DNA of 64,000 nt from Kiritimatiellia bacterium (GTDB taxonomy: Bacteria > Verrucomicrobiota > Kiritimatiellia > RFP12 > DVOR01): assembly GCA_036651955.1 (NCBI GenBank), contig JAVVWU010000001.1:24932-88931 (forward strand), in the 5' to 3' direction. The notes under the pieces are model-generated. The model saw only the letters and a list, made by a program, of their open reading frames with translations. It was not told where the DNA came from and searched no databases. Position 1 is the first letter of the stretch; every line of letters starts with the position of its first letter. The translations under genes were made by a program, and so were the position numbers. Shown piece after piece: positions 11,006 through 62,752 of this stretch.

Positions 11006-11082
11006 GGGCAATTAGCTCAGTTGGTTAGAGCACTACCTTCACACGGTAGGGGTCACTGGTCCGAGTCCAGTATTGCCCACCA
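11006..11082 (+). tRNA. tRNA-Val (anticodon CAC)
   Basis: Acceptor GGGCAAT/ATTGCCC, anticodon stem CTACC/GGTAG with loop TTCACAC, T-loop GGTCCGAGTCC, encoded CCA. Confidence 0.85.
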
Positions 11083-11169
11083 TTTTCAGCCATGCAATCG
11101 CATGGCTTTTTGTTTGATCTTCGCTCTATTCGATTGCACGGAGACAAAGACTATATTATAGTTAACGGT

Positions 11170-19039: not shown

Positions 19040-19155
19040 CACTTTTTTTACGTCTTTGAGCGCGCCACTCGCACTCTTCTGTAGAACTCTCACCTAAAGG
19101 CAAAAAGACGTATGCGCTATGCCTCCGATGTATGACACCGCAGTGAAGCAAGAGC

Positions 19156-19214
19156 CGTACCTCACTGACCCTGACCTCGTACCTCAGTGAGGTAGAGGGG
19201 CAGACTCAGTGAGG
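19156..19214. repeat. partial, inverted copy of the multi-hairpin intergenic repeat (hairpin-cluster portion only)
   Basis: A 41-nt exact match to the reverse complement of 56459-56499, then a diverged hairpin arm in which ctcagtgagg replaces ctcactgagg. Confidence 0.6.
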
Positions 19215-19392
19215 TTCACCTTTATCTCGTATAGCTTTATAGAGGTCATCTATTTGCTTCTCGCTTAAAAGGGCTTGTTCAGAAAGTACTGTCAGGAATC
19301 ACTCGCCGTATCGCGATACGGTGATCTGCCTTCCCTCTTTGTCATCGCACCACGCACGGAGGCAAAGACACGCAGAAGGAAAAGAATATGTT

Positions 19393-19569
19393 ATGCTTCT
19401 CGCCATGAAAGTATTTTTAGTTTTAGCACTCTTCGTGGTTGTAGGATTGACCGGATGTGTCAATCAATCAATTGCAGCTCGCCGTTCGGATATTCCATGG
19501 AATCAGCCGAATCGCTCCGAGGCGACGGGAGCGTTGCCTGCGTCCATTACAAATCAATATGAGGACTAA
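19393..19569 (+). CDS. small putative lipoprotein (58 aa)
   Basis: MLLAMKVFLVLALFVVVGLTGC: a signal peptide with an L-T-G-C lipobox. An AGGAAAAG RBS lies 9 nt upstream. Stop at 19567-19569, 1 nt before the ribD ATG. Confidence 0.45.
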   Translation: MLLAMKVFLVLALFVVVGLTGCVNQSIAARRSDIPWNQPNRSEATGALPASITNQYED

Positions 19570-28912: not shown

Positions 28913-30997
28913 CTAAAACCTAACGTGAAACGAAAGCTCAAACGTCCGTCCATCATTGGCAAACGCTTGAAGATTACGGGCAGACTCAATTCCGCGTGAA
29001 TCGAAAAGGTTCCGCACCGCTAAAATACAGGAGACATTATCGCCGAAAGGAAGCTCCGCAGAGGCATCAAAGGTCAATAGGCTCTTCACCGCATACCGTT
29101 CGCCAGCCGGTTGTCCGCGGAAAGTCATCAGCCAATTATCACGCCATCTTCCGCCAAAGCCCAATACCGTACCGCCTAACCAGCTCGCCTTATAACTCGT
29201 CCAAAATGAAAGGGCGTGAGGCGGAAAGCGATCAAAGCGCAATCCTCGCGTCTTGTCGTAGTAATCAATATATGTATAGGCAAGGAAGAGCGACCAGTTC
29301 TCGGTAATATTGCCACTGGCAGAGAGTTCAATGCCTTGCGAGTTTGTCTTTCCATCTTCCACATACGCCGTTAAATCGGGATCAATGGTATCGGTTACCG
29401 CAACGGGGGCATTGCTCTGATCAATATGAAAATACGTTGTCGAAATCCAAAGGCTCTCAACTGGATTGACGCGAATCCCCGCCTCCTTCTGAATGGCACG
29501 CCAAGTGCCCGATAAATAGTCGGTCGAAGAACTTCCCTGTTGACCACTTTTTGTCCACTTCTTTTGATTGAAGTTTGGCGTATCGGTAAGTGACACATTA
29601 GCGAAAAGAATTGCCCATCCGGCTTCGGCGACATCATACGAGAGCCCCAATCGCGGCGAATACGTCCACGCGTGTTCGTGTTTGACGCTATCATGCCAGT
29701 CGGCACGCAATCCCATCATCAGGCTGACGCCACGCCACTGTGCCAATTCCTGCGCCGTCAGCCCAATCTTCTTCTGCTCTTCTTGACTACTAGCAACTTT
29801 CCCGAGGTCAATCGGTTTTGATCCAAACGATCCCTTGCCTTGGCTTTGCTTCATCGTGATATTCGCGCCGATAATCAACTGATGCTTCACCTCCGAACTG
29901 TCAAACGTAAGGACTGCCTCTTGTCCGGCATACCACGCCCGCGTCAGACGATCACCAGCACCATATTCGTACAGCGCCTTTGGACTAAACCGCGGTGAGG
30001 AGTTCGGTCCGCGATAGTGATAACGGTTTTCCGTTTGGAACATCGACGCGCGTGTCCTCAAGGACAGCCAATCATTCACCTTGCCCTCTACCCGAAACGC
30101 TCCGCCATGCGTCATAAACTGCATTCGATCACCCGCTTCGGCATAGGTAGAATCCCACGAATCACCATTCACCGGTTTGCCAAATGCCGTACGAATACCT
30201 TGGTGCGCCGGTTGATTGCTGTATTGATAGAAAAGATCGGCACCAATCTCCAACCGCTCCTCCAGACGCAATGTCAGGCTCGGCGCAATCGAATACGTCC
30301 GCCCCACGCCAGCAGCTGACAGCGCATACCCCGGCTCACGCCATTCCATCGAAAGTGGCACACGCACCGCAAAATTCTCTTCCGCCACAACTTGATTGAT
30401 ATCGCTCATAAATTTCAACCGCGATCCCGATCCACGCGAATATGAACCACGAACGGTAAAATCACGGAAACTTTGCGTAAAATCGGGACGTTTCGGTTGA
30501 AGGATAATCGTGCCGCCAGCTCCCGACACATCCGACATACTGTTACTCTGACTGCCATACGCGCCGCCGACGGGACCTTTGACGATATCGACTCGTTCGA
30601 GCAGAGAAGGGTCAAGGAACGTCCCAATGCCACCAGTCAAAGGCACACCGCCCAACAGCACCTCATTCCCCGAAAAACCGCGAATCGTATACGCTCCGGC
30701 ATTTCGCGCCATCACCGTTTTTCCGCCTTGGTAAATTCCTGGCTGAAGTGCTAAAAGTTGATCTAAATCGGTCGGATTACGTTCGCGAATAAAGTCGGCG
30801 GTCAACGAATCCACAGTAAAAGGAGACTCCTGCGGCGGCATCTCCAAAAGCATCCCCGCATCGGTCGTTTCTGCGCGATATTTTGGAAGCGCGGCGGCGG
30901 TAACCACGATTGTATCATTGGTGCTAGCAGAAAGCATATTTGAAAGAAGTACAGAAGTAAGCACAAGTGCGTACTGAATGCCATTGACGTATTTCAT
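28913..30997 (-). CDS. TonB-dependent outer-membrane receptor
   Basis: Signal peptide, a plug domain (DTIVVTA...VDIVKGP) and a C-terminal beta-barrel ending in F. Start MKYVNG at 30997. Confidence 0.85.
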   Translation of the reverse strand: MKYVNGIQYALVLTSVLLSNMLSASTNDTIVVTAAALPKYRAETTDAGMLLEMPPQESPFTVDSLTADFIRERNPTDLDQLLALQPGIYQGGKTVMARNAGAYTIRGFSGNEVLLGGVPLTGGIGTFLDPSLLERVDIVKGPVGGAYGSQSNSMSDVSGAGGTIILQPKRPDFTQSFRDFTVRGSYSRGSGSRLKFMSDINQVVAEENFAVRVPLSMEWREPGYALSAAGVGRTYSIAPSLTLRLEERLEIGADLFYQYSNQPAHQGIRTAFGKPVNGDSWDSTYAEAGDRMQFMTHGGAFRVEGKVNDWLSLRTRASMFQTENRYHYRGPNSSPRFSPKALYEYGAGDRLTRAWYAGQEAVLTFDSSEVKHQLIIGANITMKQSQGKGSFGSKPIDLGKVASSQEEQKKIGLTAQELAQWRGVSLMMGLRADWHDSVKHEHAWTYSPRLGLSYDVAEAGWAILFANVSLTDTPNFNQKKWTKSGQQGSSSTDYLSGTWRAIQKEAGIRVNPVESLWISTTYFHIDQSNAPVAVTDTIDPDLTAYVEDGKTNSQGIELSASGNITENWSLFLAYTYIDYYDKTRGLRFDRFPPHALSFWTSYKASWLGGTVLGFGGRWRDNWLMTFRGQPAGERYAVKSLLTFDASAELPFGDNVSCILAVRNLFDSRGIESARNLQAFANDGRTFELSFHVRF

Positions 30998-31163
30998 GCG
31001 CGATAGTTTATCGGATAAAAAAAAGTGGCGCAAGCGTCTTTCGTTGCCGCCTCGTCCTCCACTGACCTCTGGCAAAAACTTCGCCCCACGCTCTCGCCCC
31101 TCTCCGCCGTCGCTTCGCTTCAACCGCTATCCTAAAGCGCCCTTGCCAGAATCGTGCCAATAC

Positions 31164-31529
31164 TGCATAAGTCCTACTTGCGTTGCCGACATCAAACGAT
31201 ACTTATGCAGAGCGCACGAACAGCACAAGCCGACGCCTCGCTCGCGTACCTCAGTGAGGCGGAGCGTCTACCTCACTGAGGTACGAGGTCAAGGTCAATG
31301 AGGTAGAGGTCGTACCTCACTGAGGTGCGCGGGCAAACCTTTTGCAATATCTCTTGAAATTTGTTGAGGCTACGACTAAAGCACGATAAATGAAGGAGTA
31401 AGGGGCGTCTCCTCAGACTGTTTCCCACGCCTCAAACTATAAGCGACGCTTGCCGACTTATCAGAGCGTGTTATGCCGCTCTAATTCCTGCATAAGTGTA
31501 GGAAGGAAATAAAATGTCTATTTGAAATT
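31164..31529. repeat. multi-hairpin intergenic repeat element, copy A (366 bp)
   Basis: Starts with ctgcataagt, a 28-nt loop, then acttatgcag. Then three tandem hairpins built from cctcagtgagg/cctcactgagg arms. Then a conserved core ttgcaatatctcttgaaatttgttga..gactaaagcacga. Ends with a third ctgcataagt and tctatttgaaat. Collinear with copy B. Confidence 0.75.
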
Positions 31530-31687
31530 GGCTCATCGGCGAGGAGATGGGCAACGGCGAAAGAGAGTCTTATCGACTCCTCTATTAAAGTATTCGCTAC
31601 CCTCTTGTTGGAGTATGAAAAGTTTTGAAAATAGTGTTTGTGTCAAAGATTCAATTTTAGTATACTTTGTCTCGTTTTATGCTTTCT

Positions 31688-31772
31688 GGTGGGGTACCGA
31701 AGTGGACAACCGGGGCAGACTGTAAATCTGCTGTCTATGACTTCCTTGGTTCGAATCCAAGCCCCACCACCA
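31688..31772 (+). tRNA. tRNA-Tyr (anticodon GTA), type II with a long variable arm
   Basis: Acceptor GGTGGGG/CCCCACC, anticodon loop CTGTAAA, long variable arm, T-loop GGTTCGAATCC, encoded CCA. Confidence 0.9.
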
Positions 31773-31778
31773 TTTTCA

Positions 31779-31809
31779 AGCCTGCAAACTTATGTTTGCA
31801 GGCTTTTTA
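31779..31809 (+). terminator. Rho-independent terminator after tRNA-Tyr
   Basis: agcctgcaaac ttatg tttgcaggct followed by ttttt. Confidence 0.7.
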
Positions 31810-31932
31810 TATGCTCCACGCAACACTTTTGCTCGCACTCCTTACCTACTATAAAGGCGTATCCGCGGTTATACGAGCCGTTTTAGAATCTCTTAAAACA
31901 TTGCCGCGAATCCTTTTTTATGCACTTTCGAC

Positions 31933-50156: not shown

Positions 50157-51326
50157 TCACTTCCGTGCAAGAAGCACCGTATATCCGCGACGCGAGAACG
50201 TATTGAGGACTTCAAAATGCGCAGCGGTAAGGAGTTCCGTCGGTTGGACTTCACGTTTAGAAATAAAGGCAATCATCCCGCCTCTTTTCAACACGCGTGA
50301 TGCCGTCTCAATAAAAAACTCCGCAATACGCCAATCGCCAAAATAAGGCGGATTCGCAAGAAACAAATCGTAACGATTCGGTTCGCCCAGTCCTTCATCG
50401 GAAAAGAGTACTTCTCCTGCGTGCGGATAACGGCGAAGGTTCTCCATCACCGCATCACGCGCGCACACATTTGAATCTTGATACGTTACGTGCAACTTCT
50501 TTTCGGGGAACGCCGTTGCCAATAACAGCCCGTCCATACCACAGCCACACCCCATGTCCATAATCCAATCGCCGTCATCAAATGCGACTTGTTCGGCAAC
50601 CACTTCCGTCAGTGCCAAACCGCCCATATCGGCACGGCGATGACAGAAACATCCGGGGAGCGTCATCAACTTAATCGGCTCATGTCCCTTGAGCGAGATT
50701 TCAAACTCTGCGGAGTGCGTGGACTGTTCCGTTCGTAAAATCGGATGCGCCAACGTCGCAAAAAGAACGGTGACTTCCCCCGTCTTTTTGTCGCCAAACT
50801 TTTTCAACGTGACTTTATCGCAATACTTTTTCACCCGCTTAAGAAACGTTTCATTGAGCGCATCGGAAGCAATGAAAAAACGGCGCCCTTGCGGAGCAGA
50901 ATCTTCGCACAACGTTTCCAACATATTCAATTGGAGTTCGGCGGTGCCATCGCCTTTGGTCATTTGCCAAAACACCGTTGACGCTTTCGCAAACGCGTGC
51001 AAGTCCGATTCCGCAGACACATGAAAGAGTGCTTTCGGCGCCTGATTATCGTCAAGATTCCGTTGGAGAATGCGCGCAGTATGAGCATCGAACGTATGCA
51101 CCTGATACGCTTCTCCTTGCCCACGCAACCACACCGCTTGCGCCAGTGCGCTCGTTCGCCCGCCCAGAAAAAGACAGCTGCCAAGCGTTTGAGCGATCGT
51201 GGGGAGCTGCTCCACCAAAGCGTTTTCGGTAAGATTAAGCCCACTGCGTGAAATGACACGAAGCGTACGATCTAAGAAAAGCTCTTTACGAGCATGGGGG
51301 TGATGAGTCAGCGTGATTGTCAGCAT
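50157..51326 (-). CDS. two-domain class I SAM-dependent methyltransferase (RsmC/RlmG-like 'MTS' family)
   Basis: C-terminal domain with GCGCGMDG (SAM-binding glycine-rich loop) and NPPYF. The N-terminal domain looks like a degenerate duplicate. Confidence 0.7.
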   Translation of the reverse strand: MLTITLTHHPHARKELFLDRTLRVISRSGLNLTENALVEQLPTIAQTLGSCLFLGGRTSALAQAVWLRGQGEAYQVHTFDAHTARILQRNLDDNQAPKALFHVSAESDLHAFAKASTVFWQMTKGDGTAELQLNMLETLCEDSAPQGRRFFIASDALNETFLKRVKKYCDKVTLKKFGDKKTGEVTVLFATLAHPILRTEQSTHSAEFEISLKGHEPIKLMTLPGCFCHRRADMGGLALTEVVAEQVAFDDGDWIMDMGCGCGMDGLLLATAFPEKKLHVTYQDSNVCARDAVMENLRRYPHAGEVLFSDEGLGEPNRYDLFLANPPYFGDWRIAEFFIETASRVLKRGGMIAFISKREVQPTELLTAAHFEVLNTFSRRGYTVLLARK

Positions 51327-52318
51327 ACATTTCCTTTACGGCCGACGACCAGCCAAGCGAGAAAGAGAAGAGTACGGACGGTGCCATCCGCAATCCCATG
51401 AATCAATTGTTTACCGCGTAAAAAACGATATTGATACGTTTGGCGCGTGCCGTCATAGTACCGGCGGGTAATGTTAAAGCCACACGCCTTCATTGCGCGT
51501 TCGTAGCGACGCCCCTCATACCGCCAGTTTTCAAACCACGGTTTTTTCGTACCGTAAAAGTGAAGAATGGCAGGACGCACGGCAGCTTCAATGGCTTGAC
51601 GCTCCGTCCACCCGCGCCAACGAAAGACAAAAAGATGTGAGACCGCTAAGCGCGACATTCCATCGTGCCAATTCCATCGTGGATGCAGAGAAACAACGTG
51701 ACGAAAGAGCGCACGATTGAGAAGTCCCTGATCAAGATCAGGAAGCTCGACATACGTCGCAATCTGTTCCAACCAAAACTGCACCGAATAATGTTCACGG
51801 AAAAAAGTGAGATTCATCACCAAAACACCGGAATTGAAATATCCAAACATCGCCTCTGGCATACGCGCTAAATGACACACATGTCCGTCCCGCGTCTCTT
51901 CATAGACCGCCGCGACGGCGTTTTCGCCAAGAGAAACATTGAAAAGAGGAAGCAAATTCTCGCAGACCAAGACGTCGGTATCAAGGTAAACGAGCTTCTC
52001 AATTGACGGAAAAAGTTCGGGCAGGAAAAGGCGCGCAAAAGCCGTAACCGGAAGATCTGCATACGAACGTTTAATCACATCAGCAAAATCTGCATGAGCT
52101 AATCGTTCACGCATCTCTACGACTTCGAGCGTACAGCCGCGCCGTTCAATTTCCTCCCGCACGCGAACCAAATGCTCTTCCGTAAGTCCATTAGATAATA
52201 AAAGGACACGATATCGCGCCGCTGGACAAGCCGTTTGGACAAGCGAATAAATCGCAACCGTCAATGACAGAAAGCCATTGTCGTCAGAAGCAAATGCGAC
52301 GGGAATGAAGGAGTCCAT
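51320..52318 (-). CDS. glycosyltransferase family 8 (LPS alpha-1,3-galactosyl/glucosyltransferase-like)
   Basis: IPVAFASDDNG...YLDTDVLV (DxD) layout of GT8. Paralogous to the tandem GT8 pair at 60.6-62.7 kb. Confidence 0.8.
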   Translation of the reverse strand: MDSFIPVAFASDDNGFLSLTVAIYSLVQTACPAARYRVLLLSNGLTEEHLVRVREEIERRGCTLEVVEMRERLAHADFADVIKRSYADLPVTAFARLFLPELFPSIEKLVYLDTDVLVCENLLPLFNVSLGENAVAAVYEETRDGHVCHLARMPEAMFGYFNSGVLVMNLTFFREHYSVQFWLEQIATYVELPDLDQGLLNRALFRHVVSLHPRWNWHDGMSRLAVSHLFVFRWRGWTERQAIEAAVRPAILHFYGTKKPWFENWRYEGRRYERAMKACGFNITRRYYDGTRQTYQYRFLRGKQLIHGIADGTVRTLLFLAWLVVGRKGNVC

Positions 52319-56183: not shown

Positions 56184-56353
56184 GTCATATTCCCTTTAAT
56201 GGGGATAGTATAGCGCGGTTTTCCACCTTCCGCAATGCGTCACGTGCGCGATCGCCACGCCACGACCGTCGCCCGCTCGACGCCGAATGCCGATTTGCCA
56301 CAAAAGTAGCCGCGCCGTCGCGTACCCGTCCGACTGTGCCGAAACTCTCCACT

Positions 56354-56718
56354 CTGCATAAGTCCACATCCGAGTGCAATCCAAAATGCCTACTTATGCA
56401 GAGGGCACAGTTTATGGCACCGTCGGGTACGCCGTGAGCCTCAGTGAGGTAAGAGGTCTACCTCACTGAGGTACGAGGTCAGGGTCAGTGAGGTACGAGC
56501 GCTACCTCACTGAGGTGCGCGGGCAGACCTTTTGCAATATCTCTTGAAATTTGTTGATGCTATGACTAAAGCACGAAGAATGAACGACTAAAGTCGCCTC
56601 CTCGGACAGTTCCACGCCGTAAAACTATAAGAGCGCTCCGCCACTCCCATAAGCGCTCTCTTATCCTTCTCTAATTCCTGCATAAGTGTCATAAGAAATT
56701 AAAACCTCTATTTGAAAT
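56354..56718. repeat. multi-hairpin intergenic repeat element, copy B (365 bp)
   Basis: Same architecture and orientation as copy A. The ctgcataagt/acttatgcag hairpin has an identical 28-nt loop length but a different loop sequence. The hairpin cluster (56437-56516) and the ttgcaatatctcttgaaatttgttga core are near-identical. The terminal ctgcataagt and tctatttgaaat are conserved. Confidence 0.75.
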
Positions 56719-56876
56719 GACGCCGCGTTATTAGCTGCGCATATTCTTTACCGCGCAAACGGCACGCATTGCTGCCAAAAGCCGAGAACTTCCAATTAAC
56801 TTGACCGTGGTAATGAAAATCTGTAAAGTACGCGACATCAACTGCTGTTCGCAGATTACAAGGGAGGATGTTTCCG

Positions 56877-58181
56877 ATGAAACGCAATAAGAAGTATCAT
56901 TTTGAAACGCTTCAACTCCACGTGGGACAGGAAATGCCAGACGCCGTAACGGGCGCGCGTGCCGTGCCGATTTACCAAACAACCTCTTATGTTTTCAATT
57001 CGTGTGCCCATGCTCAAGCGCGGTTTAATTTAGAGGACAGTGGCAATATTTACGGACGAATTACCAATCCGACCACCGCTATTTTCGAGCAACGTATGGC
57101 GGCGCTTGAAGGTGGCGTTGCGGCACTCGCCTTTGCTTCTGGTGCCGCCGCAATTACTGCCACGATACGAAATTTGGCGCGGAGCGGAGATCATCTTGTT
57201 GCGGCAAGAAATCTTTATGGCGGAACGGCAAACTTTCTAGCGCATACACTTCCCGAAACAGGAATCACCACAACGTTTGTTGACTGCTCCGAGAGTGCCG
57301 CAGTTCAAAAGGCGTTTCGTCCGAATACGCAAGCACTCTTTGTTGAAACGTTAGGGAATCCCAATTCAGAAATTGCCGATTTTGAAACGTTGGCAAAGAT
57401 TGCACATGAGCATAACGTTCCGTTGATTGTCGATAATACGTTCGCGACACCGTATCTGGTGCGTCCGCTCGAACATGGCGCCGATATCGTCATTCACTCC
57501 GCAACAAAATTTATTGGCGGTCATGGGACTACGCTCGGCGGTGTCCTTATTGATGGCGGTACGTTTCACTGGGACAATGGAAAATTCCCGGGGCTGAGTG
57601 AGCCGTGCCCCAGTTATCACGGCGTACGATTTACAGAAGTTGCGGGCAAAGCCGCTTTTGTGACGCGCGCCCGTACCCTTCTCTTGCGAGATGAAGGTGC
57701 AGCACTGTCGCCTTTTAATGCGTTTCTTCTCTTACAAGGTCTTGAAACATTGTCCTTGCGCGTTGAACGGCAGCTGTCCAATGCGCTGCGTGTGGTGCAG
57801 TTCCTCGAGAAACATCGTTTAGTGGAAGCCGTTCATCATCCGTCGGTGAGTCCCGATCAACGCCAACGGGCTTTATATGAAGCCTATTTCCCGAACGGAG
57901 GCGGTTCTATTTTCACTTTTGAAATCAAAGGTGGAGCAACAGAAGCCTGTGCATTTATTGATCACCTACAGCTGTTTTCGCTCTTGGCAAATGTTGCTGA
58001 CGTTAAATCTTTAGTCATTCATCCGGCGACAACGACACATTCGCAACTTTCGCCCGAAGCACTCGCGGAGGCAGGAATCCGCAGCAATACCATCCGTCTT
58101 TCGATTGGCACTGAACATATTGAGGATTTGTTAGACGATTTGTCGGAGGCGTTCGATTACGTTCAGACGCACTCCGTATAA
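56877..58181 (+). CDS. metY: O-acetylhomoserine aminocarboxypropyltransferase / sulfhydrylase
   Basis: PLP-lysine motif HSATKFIGGHGTTLGG and a Cys/Met gamma-family fold. Start MKRNKKY at 56877. Confidence 0.9.
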   Translation: MKRNKKYHFETLQLHVGQEMPDAVTGARAVPIYQTTSYVFNSCAHAQARFNLEDSGNIYGRITNPTTAIFEQRMAALEGGVAALAFASGAAAITATIRNLARSGDHLVAARNLYGGTANFLAHTLPETGITTTFVDCSESAAVQKAFRPNTQALFVETLGNPNSEIADFETLAKIAHEHNVPLIVDNTFATPYLVRPLEHGADIVIHSATKFIGGHGTTLGGVLIDGGTFHWDNGKFPGLSEPCPSYHGVRFTEVAGKAAFVTRARTLLLRDEGAALSPFNAFLLLQGLETLSLRVERQLSNALRVVQFLEKHRLVEAVHHPSVSPDQRQRALYEAYFPNGGGSIFTFEIKGGATEACAFIDHLQLFSLLANVADVKSLVIHPATTTHSQLSPEALAEAGIRSNTIRLSIGTEHIEDLLDDLSEAFDYVQTHSV

Positions 58182-60638: not shown

Positions 60639-61697
60639 ATGAAGACCATTCCAATCGTTCACTGTTTTGATTACAAATATATTATTCCTGCGAGCGTCTG
60701 TTTCCATTCTTTGTTGCGCCATGGCAATCGCGACTGCTTTTATCAACTGTTAGTCATCGGTAGTGGATTAACGCCGGAACATTGCGAAGCGCTTCAAGCC
60801 GTTGTCCGCCCCTTTCCCAATGCCTCGCTTGAAATTATCGAAGCGCCCAAACTGGATCTTCCCGACGGTGGCGAAGTGCTTTCTGCCAATCTTTCCAAAG
60901 ACGTCTTTTATAAAATGCTGATTCCCGAAATCTTTCCGCAATACGATCGCATTATCGTTTCCGATGTGGATATTGTTTACACTGGCGACACCTCGGGAAT
61001 TATGGATTTTCTCCCCGAAGACGACGATGCCTACTTTGCCGGTATTCCCGATCCCGGATATGCCGTTTGGAGAAATGAAGGCATTCTGCGAACGCTCGGC
61101 ACACCGAAGAGTTTCCACCGCTACGATCGTTTCTACACAAAAGAAATGAAAGAGAAATTGTGGTTGAACACCGGATATATGGTGCTCAACGCCAAGAAAA
61201 TGCGCGCGGATAAAATCTCACAAAAGTGTATGGCATATGCAAATGCAAATTTCAAACGGCTCGTTCTGCTCGATCAAGACGTTCTGAATATCATCTGTTT
61301 TCCGCACCTTCGCGCCGTGCCACCGCAATATATGGCGTTTGCGTTGTACCGCAAATTCTATAATGAACTGACTGCCGAACAGCGTAGCGCCGCCCCGGAA
61401 TGGGATGCAATGTTTGCAAAGCCACTTCTCCTTCACTACGTTTCCGGTCTTAAGCCGTGGAAATATCCTGCCTCTCAATTAGCGGAAGTATGGTTCGACA
61501 ATCTCATCGACTGCGGACTATTCGATCAGTGGCGGATTAGTGCTGAAAAACTGGCGCACCCTTACGAACACATTAAGAAACGCCGTCAGATTTGGAAAGG
61601 TTCGATACCTTTCACCTTGCACCCATTGCGAAAATTTGTTCTTACCATTTCCAAAGATACATATGAAACTGCCAAATATGAAGGAGGCGTGCAGTGA
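60639..61697 (+). CDS. glycosyltransferase family 8, tandem paralog 1
   Basis: IPIVHCFDYKYIIPASVCFHSLL...VSDVDIVY (DxD). About 55 % identical by eye to the next gene. Confidence 0.8.
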   Translation: MKTIPIVHCFDYKYIIPASVCFHSLLRHGNRDCFYQLLVIGSGLTPEHCEALQAVVRPFPNASLEIIEAPKLDLPDGGEVLSANLSKDVFYKMLIPEIFPQYDRIIVSDVDIVYTGDTSGIMDFLPEDDDAYFAGIPDPGYAVWRNEGILRTLGTPKSFHRYDRFYTKEMKEKLWLNTGYMVLNAKKMRADKISQKCMAYANANFKRLVLLDQDVLNIICFPHLRAVPPQYMAFALYRKFYNELTAEQRSAAPEWDAMFAKPLLLHYVSGLKPWKYPASQLAEVWFDNLIDCGLFDQWRISAEKLAHPYEHIKKRRQIWKGSIPFTLHPLRKFVLTISKDTYETAKYEGGVQ

Positions 61698-62752
61698 GAA
61701 CAATTCCAATCATTCATTGTTTTGACCACAATTATATTCTGCCCGCCGGCGTCTGTTTCCAGTCCCTGCTTGCAACAGCGAATCCCGATACGTTTTACGC
61801 ATTGCACGTTATCGGTACAGCATTAACCGATGAGGACAAAGAAACACTGTTAACGATTGTCCGCAAATTCCCGAATGCCTCGCTTGAATTTATCGAAGCT
61901 CCCGCGCTGGATCTTCCCGGCGGTGGTGAAATCTCATCGGGGAATCTTTCCAAAGACGTTTTTTATAAAATGCTTATTCCTGAACTTTTCCCACAATATG
62001 ATGTCGCGATCGTGACCGACGTAGACGTTGTTTATAAAAATGATATTGCAACCGCTTTTGATTATTTAAGCGCCGATGACGATGCCTATTTTTGTGGAAC
62101 AAAAGACGTTGGCTACTCCGTTTGGAACAACACCGGCATCTTGCGCGAGTTGGGTGCGCCCAAATTCTTCGTTCGTTACAATCGTCTCTTCTCCTCCGAA
62201 GAACGTGCCGCACTCAAAATCGGCGCCGGTTTTTGCATTTTCAATTGCAAACGTATGCGCGAAGACAAGATTCCTAAAAGATGTCTTGATTTCACCCGTA
62301 AGAACTTTTCACGTTTGTTGCTTCCAGAGCAAGACGTACTGAATATCGTTTGTGCGTCCAAGGTAAAAACGATGCCCTCACGCTTCATGGCGATTGCTTA
62401 CTACGACAAATATTATCAGGAACTCACAGCGGAACAACGCGCGAAGAATCCGGCATGGGATGAAATGTTTTCCGACCCTGTGCAAATACACTATGCTTCC
62501 GGTATTAAACCGTGGAAGTACCCTGCCTCGCCATTGGCAGATCCATGGTTCAAAGCGCTTTTTGACAGTGGACTGTTTGACCGTTGGCGGCTTTGGTTTG
62601 ACCACTATTTGCATCCGTATGAAGAAGTCAAAAAGACACGCGACCTTTTCGAGTTTTCCGTTCCCTTTACGTGGAAACCGCTGCGCCGGCTCATTGTCAA
62701 TTTCTCTAAAGATACCTATGAGGAACATGACCGTGATACCGTTCAAGAGTAA
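61694..62752 (+). CDS. glycosyltransferase family 8, tandem paralog 2
   Basis: [23 protein letters not shown]...VTDVDVVY. Collinear with paralog 1 over the full 352 aa. Overlaps its stop (ATGA-type). Confidence 0.8.

What the first reader, a model, noticed from the sequence alone, without database searches (positions are those of the whole stretch)
56354..56718. Second full copy of the repeat: identical length and hairpin geometry, with unalignable filler segments
Copy B (365 bp) is collinear with copy A (366 bp) and in the same orientation.
- Hairpin 1 has identical stems and an identical 28-nt loop length, but a completely different loop sequence.
- The hairpin cluster (56437-56516) and the core (56517-56575) are about 90 % identical, with base changes at a/g and c/t positions.
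- The roughly 110 bp between the core and the terminal CTGCATAAGT...TCTATTTGAAAT is unrelated in sequence but the same length.

Sequence-specific ends and stems with length-constrained filler are typical of elements selected for structure or spacing, not of decaying duplications. Both copies sit immediately 5' of plus-strand genes (tRNA-Tyr, metY) and upstream of divergent minus-strand operons (the TonB receptor and the Ser/Thr kinase 8-gene operon). They could therefore be shared bidirectional regulatory modules.
Basis: seen in the sequence. Interest (0 to 1): 0.7.

Follow-up and report, generated by a model that had tools for sequence, protein, structure and literature searches.

The report
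Dispersed hairpin-forming intergenic mosaic repeat
An uncultured Kiritimatiellia bacterium carries two 365-bp copies, plus one partial copy, of a non-coding repeat in which short motifs, stems and spacings are kept while the sequence between them has diverged; this pattern resembles hairpin-forming bacterial repeat families (REPIN/BIME type), and its function is untested.

Summary
Copy B (56354-56718, 365 bp) is collinear and co-oriented with copy A (31163-31528, 366 bp).

- **Block structure.** Conserved blocks are 87-100% identical. They are three CTGCATAAGT "P" sites, four palindromes CCTCA(G/C)TGAGG spaced exactly 22 bp apart, a 60-bp core and a 12-bp end. Between them lies near-random filler of the same length. 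A permutation test rejects uniform divergence.
- **One sub-claim is wrong.** The first ~50 nt after the core align at about 70%. The core-to-P3 distance (150 bp) is kept by compensating -3/+3 indels.
- **New findings.** A third, inverted, array-only copy lies at 19137-19215. Stems extend beyond the motifs with copy-specific sequence. One conspecific strain carries a 5-SNP cluster that turns the array flanks into a perfect inverted repeat.
- **What was not found.** No ORF, no Rfam family, no canonical promoter or terminator, and no homologue in any searched collection or in three related species.

Best reading (confidence 0.4): a dispersed, protein-recognised, hairpin-forming mosaic repeat of the REPIN/BIME kind. 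Rivals are a shared upstream regulatory module, a sigma-54 sRNA gene and an invertible switch. Interest is moderate to low.

The parts
56354..56363 (+). Copy B, P1 site CTGCATAAGT (left boundary of the repeat)
   Evidence: Exact 10-mer. The 12/12 identical block CTGCATAAGTCC matches copy A.
56364..56391 (.). Copy B, 28-nt filler between P1 and P2
   Evidence: Same length as in A. The interior is 7/24 identical.
56392..56401 (-). Copy B, P2 site (ACTTATGCAG, the inverted P)
   Evidence: It is also inverted relative to P3, 276 bp away (I7).
56342..56413 (.). Copy B, extended inverted repeat around P1/P2 (22-nt arms, 86% complementary)
   Evidence: I1. Nine of the 12 extra positions pair (p=4e-4). 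The extension sequence differs from that of copy A. DNA fold z = -4.4.
56439..56515 (.). Copy B, array of four palindromes: S1 56439-49, S2 56461-71, S3 56483-93 (half-site only), S4 56505-15, at exactly 22-bp spacing
   Evidence: It folds as one long hairpin (S1:S4, S2:S3), with DNA z = -5.6 and RNA z = -7.3.
56516..56575 (+). Copy B, conserved non-palindromic core. The part from 56529 on is AT-rich (34% GC) and contains TTGCAAT and TTGAAAT
   Evidence: 57/60 identical to A, with a 30-mer identical. A sigma-54-like GGGCAGACCTTTTGCA lies at 56521-56536 and scores only 9/12.
56576..56670 (.). Copy B, post-core segment (95 nt). The first 50 nt are semi-conserved and the rest is diverged. It includes the hairpin AGAGCGCT-N14-AGCGCTCT at 56630-56659
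   Evidence: No consensus RNA structure is shared with copy A. No T-run follows the hairpin.
56671..56690 (+). Copy B, P3 block CTAATTCCTGCATAAGTGT (P3 = 56678-56687, a direct repeat of P1)
   Evidence: 19/20 identical to A.
56707..56718 (+). Copy B, right-end motif TCTATTTGAAAT
   Evidence: 12/12 identical to A. Homology stops here.
31163..31528 (+). Copy A, full element: P1 31163-72, P2 31201-10, S1-S4 31249-31325, core 31326-85, hairpin 31462-81, P3 31488-97, end 31517-28
   Evidence: It is present at 98-99% identity in four conspecific MAGs.
31235..31339 (.). Copy A, array plus complementary flanks (a 105-nt imperfect palindrome)
   Evidence: DNA fold z = -6.1. In strain locus L011, five clustered SNPs (31327-31338) make the right flank the perfect reverse complement of the left flank.
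19137..19215 (-). Copy C, solo array of four sites in inverse orientation. S2-S3 is identical to copy B over 41 nt. S1 and S4 are degenerate. There are no P sites and no core
   Evidence: Homology ends right after S4. DNA fold z = -4.6.

Best explanation
The element is a non-coding, DNA-level mosaic repeat of the extragenic-palindrome kind (REPIN/BIME-like).

**Composition**
- An inverted doublet of a 10-12-bp P motif with a 28-nt spacer.
- A 105-bp quasi-palindrome made of four 13-bp palindromic units on a strict 22-bp register.
- A 60-bp conserved non-palindromic core.
- A third P site plus a fixed end motif.

**Proposed mechanism**
- The motifs and stems are what a trans-acting DNA-binding or DNA-processing protein reads, either on hairpins in single-stranded DNA or on one face of the duplex.
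- Motif sequence, stem pairing and spacer length are therefore maintained while spacer sequence drifts.
- The modules have been copied to several intergenic sites. The array occurs at three loci and the full composite at two.
- Hairpins really form, as shown by template-switch 'correction' of the arms.
- Any effect on the neighbouring divergent promoters would be secondary (supercoil sink, insulator or protein landing pad).

**Shown:** anatomy, block-wise conservation, spacing constraint, hairpin potential, arm-extension events, dispersal of the array module, and absence of coding or known-RNA signal.

**Inferred:** recognition by a protein, the mode of spread, and the lack of a dedicated regulatory role.
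For: - **Block-wise identity with length-matched filler**. [quoted passage not shown]
- **Copy-specific stem extension.** The P1/P2 arms of copy B are 22 nt at 86% (p=4e-4). The array flanks of copy A match at 7/9 (p=1e-3).
- **Template-switch signature.** In strain L011 a 5-SNP cluster makes 14/14 perfect flanks. This is the signature of quasipalindrome template switching (PMC7202029).
- **Strong hairpin potential.** Arrays give z of -4.6 to -6.1 as DNA.
- **The array is a separable, dispersed module.** A third locus carries it alone in the opposite orientation. Its 41-nt S2-S3 heart is identical to copy B, including the non-palindromic linker. This cannot be convergence.
- **Density.** Twelve palindromic units in ~73 kb is comparable with REP densities, if the window is typical.
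- **No rival signal.** There is no ORF conserved between copies, no Rfam hit, no consensus RNA fold after the core, and no canonical sigma-70 promoter or intrinsic terminator inside. This organism does use canonical terminators after its tRNAs.
- **Strain polymorphism.** SNPs avoid the P sites, the S half-sites and core positions 31339-31385, but hit fillers and the central base of S4.
Against: - Only two full copies and one array are visible. Genome-wide copy number is unknown.
- No RAYT or other transposase was found among the window proteins scanned.
- There are no terminal inverted repeats or target-site duplications (read from the sequence).
- All three loci lie between divergent genes, not at the 3' ends where classical REPs concentrate (from memory).
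- The palindromic units are short (13-15 bp) and sit on an exact two-helical-turn register. That looks more like a phased operator array for a dimeric DNA-binding protein than like typical REPs.
- The 60-bp non-palindromic core, P3 and the end motif have no counterpart in REPINs.
- Saturated filler next to ~95-100% blocks implies long-term constraint, which a host function would also explain.
Confidence: 0.4

Rival explanations
1. Shared upstream regulatory or architectural module. Four dimers of one DNA-binding protein would occupy the 22-bp-phased S palindromes on one face of the helix. A second protein would bridge P1/P2 with P3, looping about 287 bp. The complex would modulate the divergent promoters on both sides.
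For: - The register is exactly 22 bp in all three arrays.
- The half-site sequence itself is conserved (11 of 12 sites keep TGAGG) while the central base varies among G, C and A, including a polymorphism within the species.
- Distances between sites are kept to within 1 bp, through compensating indels.
- Every locus lies between divergent genes.
- A strong sigma-54-like box, TGGCACGATTCTGGCA (11/12), lies immediately left of copy A and faces the TonB receptor gene. That would place the array about 90-180 bp upstream of it, a typical enhancer distance.
Against: - The element ends 83-130 bp from every sigma-70-like -35 box I can read, so nothing is occluded.
- Copy B has no sigma-54 box on its left.
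- The flanking genes (TonB receptor, tRNA-Tyr/V-ATPase, kinase operon, metY, tRNA-Gly/Lys, ribD) share no obvious regulon logic.
- No regulator gene lies nearby.
- A protein-only model does not predict copy-specific complementary extension of the stems.
- Collinear homology over 366 bp, including a 60-bp core, is more than a set of binding sites requires.
Confidence: 0.25
2. Two paralogous small-RNA genes. A sigma-54 promoter in the core (GGGCA(A/G)ACCTTTTGCA, start near 31357 / 56547) would be activated by an enhancer-binding protein on the S array. The semi-conserved ~110 nt would be the sRNA, ending at the AGAGCG...CGCTCT hairpin. Known analogues from memory are Qrr1-5 and GlmY/GlmZ.
For: - The GG-N10-GC spacing is correct and TTGCA is perfect in both copies.
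- Palindromes lie upstream at about -37 to -103.
- Conservation is highest around the putative start and decays 3'.
- Each copy has a GC-rich hairpin before P3, with different sequence.
- The one A/B difference inside the box falls in the -24/-12 spacer.
Against: - The box scores only 9/12. About 40 equally good matches occur in the window.
- In conspecific strain L011 the invariant -24 GG is changed to AG, while the rest of the element is intact.
- The hairpins lack the T-run that this organism's tRNA terminators have.
- No consensus structure exists (-10 to -14 kcal/mol), and fold z-scores are -0.5 to -2.0.
- The model leaves P1, P2, P3, the end motif and the solo array unexplained.
- There is no Rfam match.
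- No enhancer-binding protein (GAFTGA motif) is encoded in the window.
Confidence: 0.12
3. Invertible (phase-variable) DNA switch. P2 and P3 would be 10-bp inverted repeats flanking a 277/276-bp segment that a site-specific recombinase flips. The S array and core would serve as accessory or bending sites, as in fimS, or carry a promoter directed at either neighbour.
For: - Perfect inverted repeats ACTTATGCAG/CTGCATAAGT flank 277 and 276 bp in both copies. The size is similar to fimS (~314 bp, from memory).
- The strict length constraint suits synapsis.
- The minus-side neighbours include surface-related genes: a TonB receptor, GT8 glycosyltransferases and an LRR protein.
- Families of invertons sharing inverted repeats exist in gut bacteria (PMC11602134 and PMC11892184, listed).
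Against: - All five assemblies of copy A and all three of copy B have the same orientation.
- There is no recombinase among the window proteins scanned.
- No recognisable outward-facing promoter lies inside.
- P1 is a third site that simple invertons do not need.
- The solo array has no P sites.
Confidence: 0.07
4. Plain segmental duplication of an intergenic stretch that is decaying neutrally, with no function.
For: Two co-oriented copies lie 25 kb apart.
Against: - Divergence is far from uniform.
- Filler is near random while blocks are 95-100% identical, yet lengths match to within 1 bp.
- The array also exists separately and inverted.
Confidence: 0.03

Closest known systems
REPINs / REP sequences (Pseudomonas, Enterobacteria; mobilised by RAYT transposases)
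   Same: - Conserved short inverted sequences are separated by a spacer whose length and pairing, but not sequence, are kept.
- Compensatory changes occur in the stems.
- Location is extragenic.
- Higher-order clusters occur.
- Degenerate copies exist (PMC3116915).
   Different: - The units here are 10-15 bp, not ~20-35 bp.
- The array is on a rigid 22-bp register.
- A 60-bp non-palindromic core, a third P site and an end motif are attached.
- The loci lie between divergent genes.
- Copy number and a cognate RAYT are unknown.
BIMEs / RIP-RIB elements of E. coli and BOX elements of Streptococcus pneumoniae (from memory)
   Same: - They are modular mosaics: palindromic units in alternating orientation joined by fixed-length linkers, sometimes with a conserved non-palindromic module (an IHF site, or boxA/boxC).
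- Modules occur in different combinations at different loci.
   Different: - There is no sequence similarity.
- The classical elements are mostly transcribed at the 3' ends of genes.
- IHF or gyrase binding is not testable here. The core has only a loose TCAANNNNTT match, read from the sequence.
Phased operator arrays (lambdoid OR/OL, ori-lambda iterons; from memory)
   Same: Three or four dyad-symmetric sites lie about two helical turns apart, next to an AT-rich segment.
   Different: - No repressor or initiator gene is adjacent.
- The sites do not overlap promoters.
- The element is present at several chromosomal housekeeping loci.
- Nothing was found in phage or viral collections.
fimS-type and Bacteroides-type invertible promoters
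   Same: Short inverted repeats flank ~280 bp containing protein-binding sites, in a divergent intergenic region next to surface genes.
   Different: No alternative orientation, invertase or internal promoter was detected.
Sigma-54-dependent paralogous sRNAs (Qrr, GlmY/GlmZ; from memory)
   Same: Paralogous non-coding loci have conserved upstream palindromes and a -24/-12-like box.
   Different: The box is weak and is lost in one strain. There is no terminator and no conserved fold.

Membership tests
REPIN / REP | Inverted doublet of a conserved short sequence that forms a hairpin, with a less conserved spacer of conserved length | tested here: met
   - P1-N28-P2 occurs in both copies.
- S1:S4 and S2:S3 pair in a nested hairpin.
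- Filler is 29-45% identical at equal length.
REPIN / REP | Compensatory or copy-specific changes that keep the stem paired | tested here: met
   - Copy B has 22-nt arms, against 10+6 nt of different sequence in copy A.
- The array flanks of copy A match 7/9.
- The flanks in L011 are 14/14 perfect.
REPIN / REP | Tens to hundreds of copies spread over extragenic space | not testable with these tools
   - Only ~73 kb of this genome could be read, and it holds three loci.
- The genome-contig scan did not contain this species.
- No spurious ORF calls over other copies were found.
REPIN / REP | Cognate single-copy RAYT (Y1 HUH transposase) gene flanked by the repeats | not testable with these tools
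   None was found among the 28 window proteins scanned with Pfam.
MITE | Terminal inverted repeats and target-site duplication | tested here: not met
   - The ends are CTGCATAAGT... and ...TCTATTTGAAAT, which are not inverted.
- The flanks are CAATA/TGGCT and CCACT/GACGC, with no duplication.
Invertible promoter (inverton) | Inverted repeats flanking a short segment | tested here: met
   P2/P3 match 10/10 and lie 277 and 276 bp apart.
Invertible promoter (inverton) | Both orientations present in populations; a nearby or dedicated invertase; a promoter inside | tested here: inconclusive
   - The orientation is the same in 5 assemblies of copy A and 3 of copy B.
- No recombinase was found among the window proteins scanned and no promoter-like site inside the element.
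- Raw reads could not be examined.
Sigma-54-dependent sRNA gene | -24 GG / -12 GC promoter conserved in all functional copies | tested here: inconclusive
   The box scores 9/12 in copies A and B, with about 40 equal matches in the window. GG becomes AG in strain L011.
Sigma-54-dependent sRNA gene | Intrinsic terminator and a conserved RNA fold | tested here: not met
   - No terminator was predicted in copy A. In copy B the scan gave one terminator-like site, on the minus strand, at the level expected by chance (0.9 in shuffles).
- The consensus fold is weak.
- The organism's tRNA terminators are canonical.
Any Rfam family | Covariance-model match at or near the gathering score | tested here: not met
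   Only tRNAs pass the threshold. The best sub-threshold hits are spurious miRNA models matching the palindromes.
Phage-type operator/iteron array | Adjacent gene for the binding protein; sites overlapping promoters or an origin; relatives in phages or plasmids | tested here: not met
   Neighbouring genes are housekeeping. There are no hits in viral contigs, phages or plasmids.

The most novel reading that the evidence does not exclude
The element could be a host-selected, spacing-locked nucleoprotein scaffold. Two different site types (P x3, S x4) would assemble a looped complex of ~290 bp between divergent promoters. It would act as a new kind of shared enhancer or insulator, as a family of phase switches, or as the control region of sigma-54-driven paralogous sRNAs, in the poorly studied Kiritimatiellia.
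Probability: 0.15. Interest if true: 0.65.

Novelty: new variant of a known kind. Interest (0 to 1): 0.35.

Why it matters
If this is a REPIN/BIME-like family, it would extend hairpin-based, spacing-constrained intragenomic repeats to Kiritimatiellota (PVC superphylum). It would do so with an unusual architecture: 13-bp palindromes on a two-turn register fused to a non-palindromic core.

It also gives a clean natural example of quasipalindrome template switching within a species, where five linked SNPs perfect a 25-nt arm. For annotation, it warns that these ~690-bp 'promoter regions' are mostly repeat.

If the element is instead a host regulatory scaffold, it would point to an unknown DNA-binding protein pair that controls tRNA, transport and signalling operons.

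Tried and rejected
**Searches for further copies**
- The genome-contig scan with the 21-mer from the core returned two chance hits inside coding sequence.
- The metagenome-contig scan with the invariant array 21-mer returned one chance hit in a high-GC ORF.
- Five viral-contig scans (array pair, core, P1-N28-P2, P3 block, gapped S pair) found nothing relevant.
- blastn against plasmids found no match. Against phages it found only a 37-nt chance match.
- Orthologous-locus fishing through metY failed. The nearest non-self homologues are ~66-74% identical and come from Clostridia-like contexts without the element.
- Fishing through V-ATPase subunit A returned four conspecific loci that carry copy A. 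It also returned three related species (82-84% protein identity) with no synteny and no S, P or core motif in ~60 kb.
- The 8.7 kb beyond the right end of the window holds no further copy.
- I concatenated six-frame peptides of the conserved blocks to catch spurious ORF calls over other copies. None was found.

**Readings considered and dropped**
- A sigma-70 promoter in the core. TTGAAA-17-TAAAGC and TTGCAA-17/18-TGAGGC lack a usable -10 box, and the tool finds none.
- attL/attR of a 25-kb island. The interior is housekeeping, there is no integrase, and homology lies on both sides of the core.
- oriT-like or nick-site resemblances (TTCCTGC, TAAGTG). These motifs are too short to count as evidence.
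- A conserved micro-ORF (ATG-N6-TAA). It has three codons and no Shine-Dalgarno sequence.
- An Rfam family.

Full report
**1. What is there**

The window comes from an uncultured Kiritimatiellia species. Its metY and V-ATPase A proteins are 100% identical to proteins of NCBI MAGs named Kiritimatiellia bacterium. The same loci occur in GCA_036648375.1, GCA_036655095.1, GCA_036649275.1, GCA_036653435.1 and GCA_036659595.1.

Copy B of the repeat is 56354-56718 (365 bp) and copy A is 31163-31528 (366 bp). Both are on the + strand. The anatomy below uses A coordinates, with A-versus-B identity:
- P1, CTGCATAAGTCC: 12/12.
- 24-nt loop interior: 7/24.
- P2, TACTTATGCAGAG: 13/15.
- Spacer: 35 versus 34 nt.
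- Four palindromes S1-S4, CCTCA(G/C)TGAGG, at 31249, 31271, 31293 and 31315, exactly 22 bp apart. S1 and S4 are 11/11 and the S2-S3 block is 33/35. The S1-S2 and S3-S4 linkers are 5/11 and 3/9.
- 60-bp core: 57/60, including an identical 30-mer.
- 95-nt post-core segment.
- P3 block, CTAATTCCTGCATAAGTGT: 19/20.
- 16-nt filler: 10/16.
- End motif, TCTATTTGAAAT: 12/12.

The motifs are far above chance. The S pattern gives 8 hits against 0.44 expected. There are six perfect P 10-mers. TRF reports period 22 at both loci.

**2.

A permutation test was run on the MAFFT columns of the element.
- There are 87 match/mismatch runs, against 151 +/- 7.8 expected.
- The windowed-identity variance is 10.7, against a maximum of 6.6 in 10,000 permutations.

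Divergence is therefore block-wise, not uniform. Lengths are matched: P1-P2 is 38/38, the S register is 22/22/22, core to P3 is 150/150, and P3 to the end is 41/41. The only net difference is 1 bp, in the P2-S1 spacer.

One sub-claim is wrong. The post-core segment is not unrelated.
- Its first 53/50 nt align at about 70%.
- The equal total length results from a -3 and a +3 indel that cancel.
- If anything, this is stronger evidence for a constraint on distance.

**3. New facts**

(a) A third copy of the array alone lies at 19137-19215 in inverse orientation.
- Its S2-linker-S3 heart is identical to copy B over 41 nt.
- S1 and S4 are degenerate.
- Homology stops immediately after S4.

(b) The arrays fold as one long nested hairpin (S1:S4, S2:S3). 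The DNA z-scores are -6.1, -5.6 and -4.6.

(c) Stems extend beyond the conserved motifs with copy-specific sequence.
- The P1/P2 arms of copy B are 22 nt at 86% (9 of 12 extra pairs, p=4e-4).
- Copy A has a different 6-bp extension.
- The filler to the left of S1 in copy A is complementary to the conserved sequence to the right of S4 at 7 of 9 positions (p=1e-3).

(d) Among five conspecific assemblies of copy A, SNPs fall in fillers, in the central base of S4 and in flanking intergenic DNA. None falls in a P site, an S half-site or core positions 31339-31385.

(e) Strain locus L011 carries five SNPs within 12 bp (31327-31338).
- They convert the right flank of the array to TACGCGAGCGAGGC, the exact reverse complement of the left flank GCCTCGCTCGCGTA.
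- This is the signature of quasipalindrome template switching (PMC7202029).
- It shows that the hairpin forms in vivo on single-stranded DNA.
- It also shows that the sequence at 31327-31338 is dispensable.

**4. Context**

A and B each sit mid-way in a ~690-bp region between divergent genes.
- Copy A lies between the TonB-dependent receptor (start 30997, per the 694-aa gene call) and tRNA-Tyr (31688), which is followed by a V-ATPase operon.
- Copy B lies between a Ser/Thr kinase (start 56183) and metY (56868). The kinase heads eight consecutive minus-strand genes.
- Copy C lies between tRNA-Gly/Lys (minus strand) and a small lipoprotein-like ORF followed by ribD.

I read these sigma-70-like promoters from the sequence:

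| Gene | Promoter | Coordinates |
|---|---|---|
| TonB receptor | TTGCGC-17-TAAACT | 31033-31005 |
| Kinase | TTGCGG-17-TATACT | 56235-56207 |
| tRNA-Tyr | TTGTGT-17-TATACT | 31638-31666 |
| metY | TTGACC-17-TAAAGT | 56801-56829 |

The element therefore ends 83-130 bp from each -35 box and overlaps none of them. The window is housekeeping, with no transposase, recombinase or regulator among the 28 proteins scanned.

**5. What it is not**

- It is non-coding. All six frames are closed.
- No Rfam family matches.
- The post-core region has no consensus RNA fold and unremarkable fold energies.
- There is no sigma-70 promoter or intrinsic terminator inside. The organism's tRNA genes do end in canonical hairpin-plus-T-run terminators.
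- The core contains a sigma-54-like box, GGGCA(A/G)ACCTTTTGCA, with correct GG-N10-GC spacing. It scores only 9/12, about 40 equally good matches occur in the window, and its GG is lost in L011.
- There are no terminal inverted repeats and no target duplication.
- Nothing similar was found in one-genome-per-species contigs, JGI metagenomes, IMG/VR, phages or plasmids. Nothing similar was found in ~60 kb from three related species either.

**6. Interpretation**

The combination has a published precedent in REPINs. That combination is conserved inverted arms, a variable spacer of fixed length, copy-specific compensatory stem extension, separable modules dispersed to several intergenic sites, and degenerate partial copies. 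[quoted passage not shown] BIME and BOX mosaics are similar (from memory).

I therefore rank a REPIN/BIME-like, protein-recognised, hairpin-forming mosaic repeat first, at 0.4. Membership proper cannot be claimed, because copy number and a cognate transposase are untestable here. Several features are atypical:
- The units are short.
- The register is a rigid two helical turns.
- The core is long and non-palindromic.
- The loci lie between divergent genes.

Those same atypical features keep the regulatory-scaffold reading alive at 0.25. It gains a little from a strong sigma-54-like box (11/12) at 31159-31144 that faces the TonB receptor gene, with the array about 90-180 bp upstream. Copy B has no equivalent box.

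The sigma-54 sRNA model (0.12) and the inverton model (0.07) are weaker. For the inverton model, perfect P2/P3 inverted repeats flank 277/276 bp, but the orientation is the same in all eight assemblies. Neutral duplication is rejected.

**7. Verdict**

- The 'selected for spacing/structure' inference is supported.
- The 'bidirectional regulatory module' reading is untested and is not the most economical one.
- Novelty is a new variant of the extragenic palindromic/mosaic repeat kind, in a phylum where none has been described to my knowledge.
- Interest is moderate to low, because nothing can be tied to a function. Whole-genome counting and read-level checks would settle most of it cheaply.

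Noticed in passing
window 31144-31159 (minus strand): A near-consensus sigma-54 -24/-12 box, TGGCACGATTCTGGCA (11/12, joint best in the window), lies 4 bp left of copy A. It faces the TonB-dependent receptor gene. Copy B has no counterpart.
   Followed up: partly
L011 (GCA_036649275.1), equivalent to window 31327-31338 and 31320: Five clustered SNPs turn the right flank of the array into the perfect reverse complement of the left flank. This is an apparent one-step quasipalindrome template-switch event within a species. The central base of S4 is also polymorphic (C/G) in L011 and L015.
   Followed up: yes
window 30997-31033 (minus strand): The sigma-70-like promoter of the TonB receptor gene (TTGCGC-17-TAAACT) ends 7 nt before the ATG, and there is no Shine-Dalgarno sequence. 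This suggests a leaderless mRNA.
   Followed up: no
window 60639-61697 and 61694-62752: Two tandem GT8 glycosyltransferase paralogues of 352 aa each have repeat blocks about 78-80% identical at the DNA level (repeat families D2 and D5, 1055-bp offset). A third GT8 lies in the kinase operon at 51320-52318.
   Followed up: no
window 11077-11115 and 31767-31812: The trailers of tRNA-Val and tRNA-Tyr share CCACCATTTTCA followed by a GC hairpin and a T-run. These are canonical intrinsic terminators, and the trailers are 79% similar.
   Followed up: partly
window 56868-58181 (metY): Outside its own species, the closest homologues of this O-acetylhomoserine sulfhydrylase are ~62-74% identical. The few named ones are Firmicutes MAGs such as Lachnospiraceae, not Kiritimatiellia. 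Horizontal acquisition is possible.
   Followed up: no
window 19405-19569: A small ORF with a lipoprotein-like signal peptide (MKVFLVLALFVVVGLTGC...) lies between the solo array and ribD. No tool called it separately.
   Followed up: no
window 30998-31687 and 56184-56867: The two intergenic regions that host copies A and B have almost the same total length (690 and 684 bp). The element is almost equally centred in each (166/171 bp on the left, 160/150 bp on the right). The flanks are nonetheless not alignable and their promoters lie at different offsets.
   Followed up: partly
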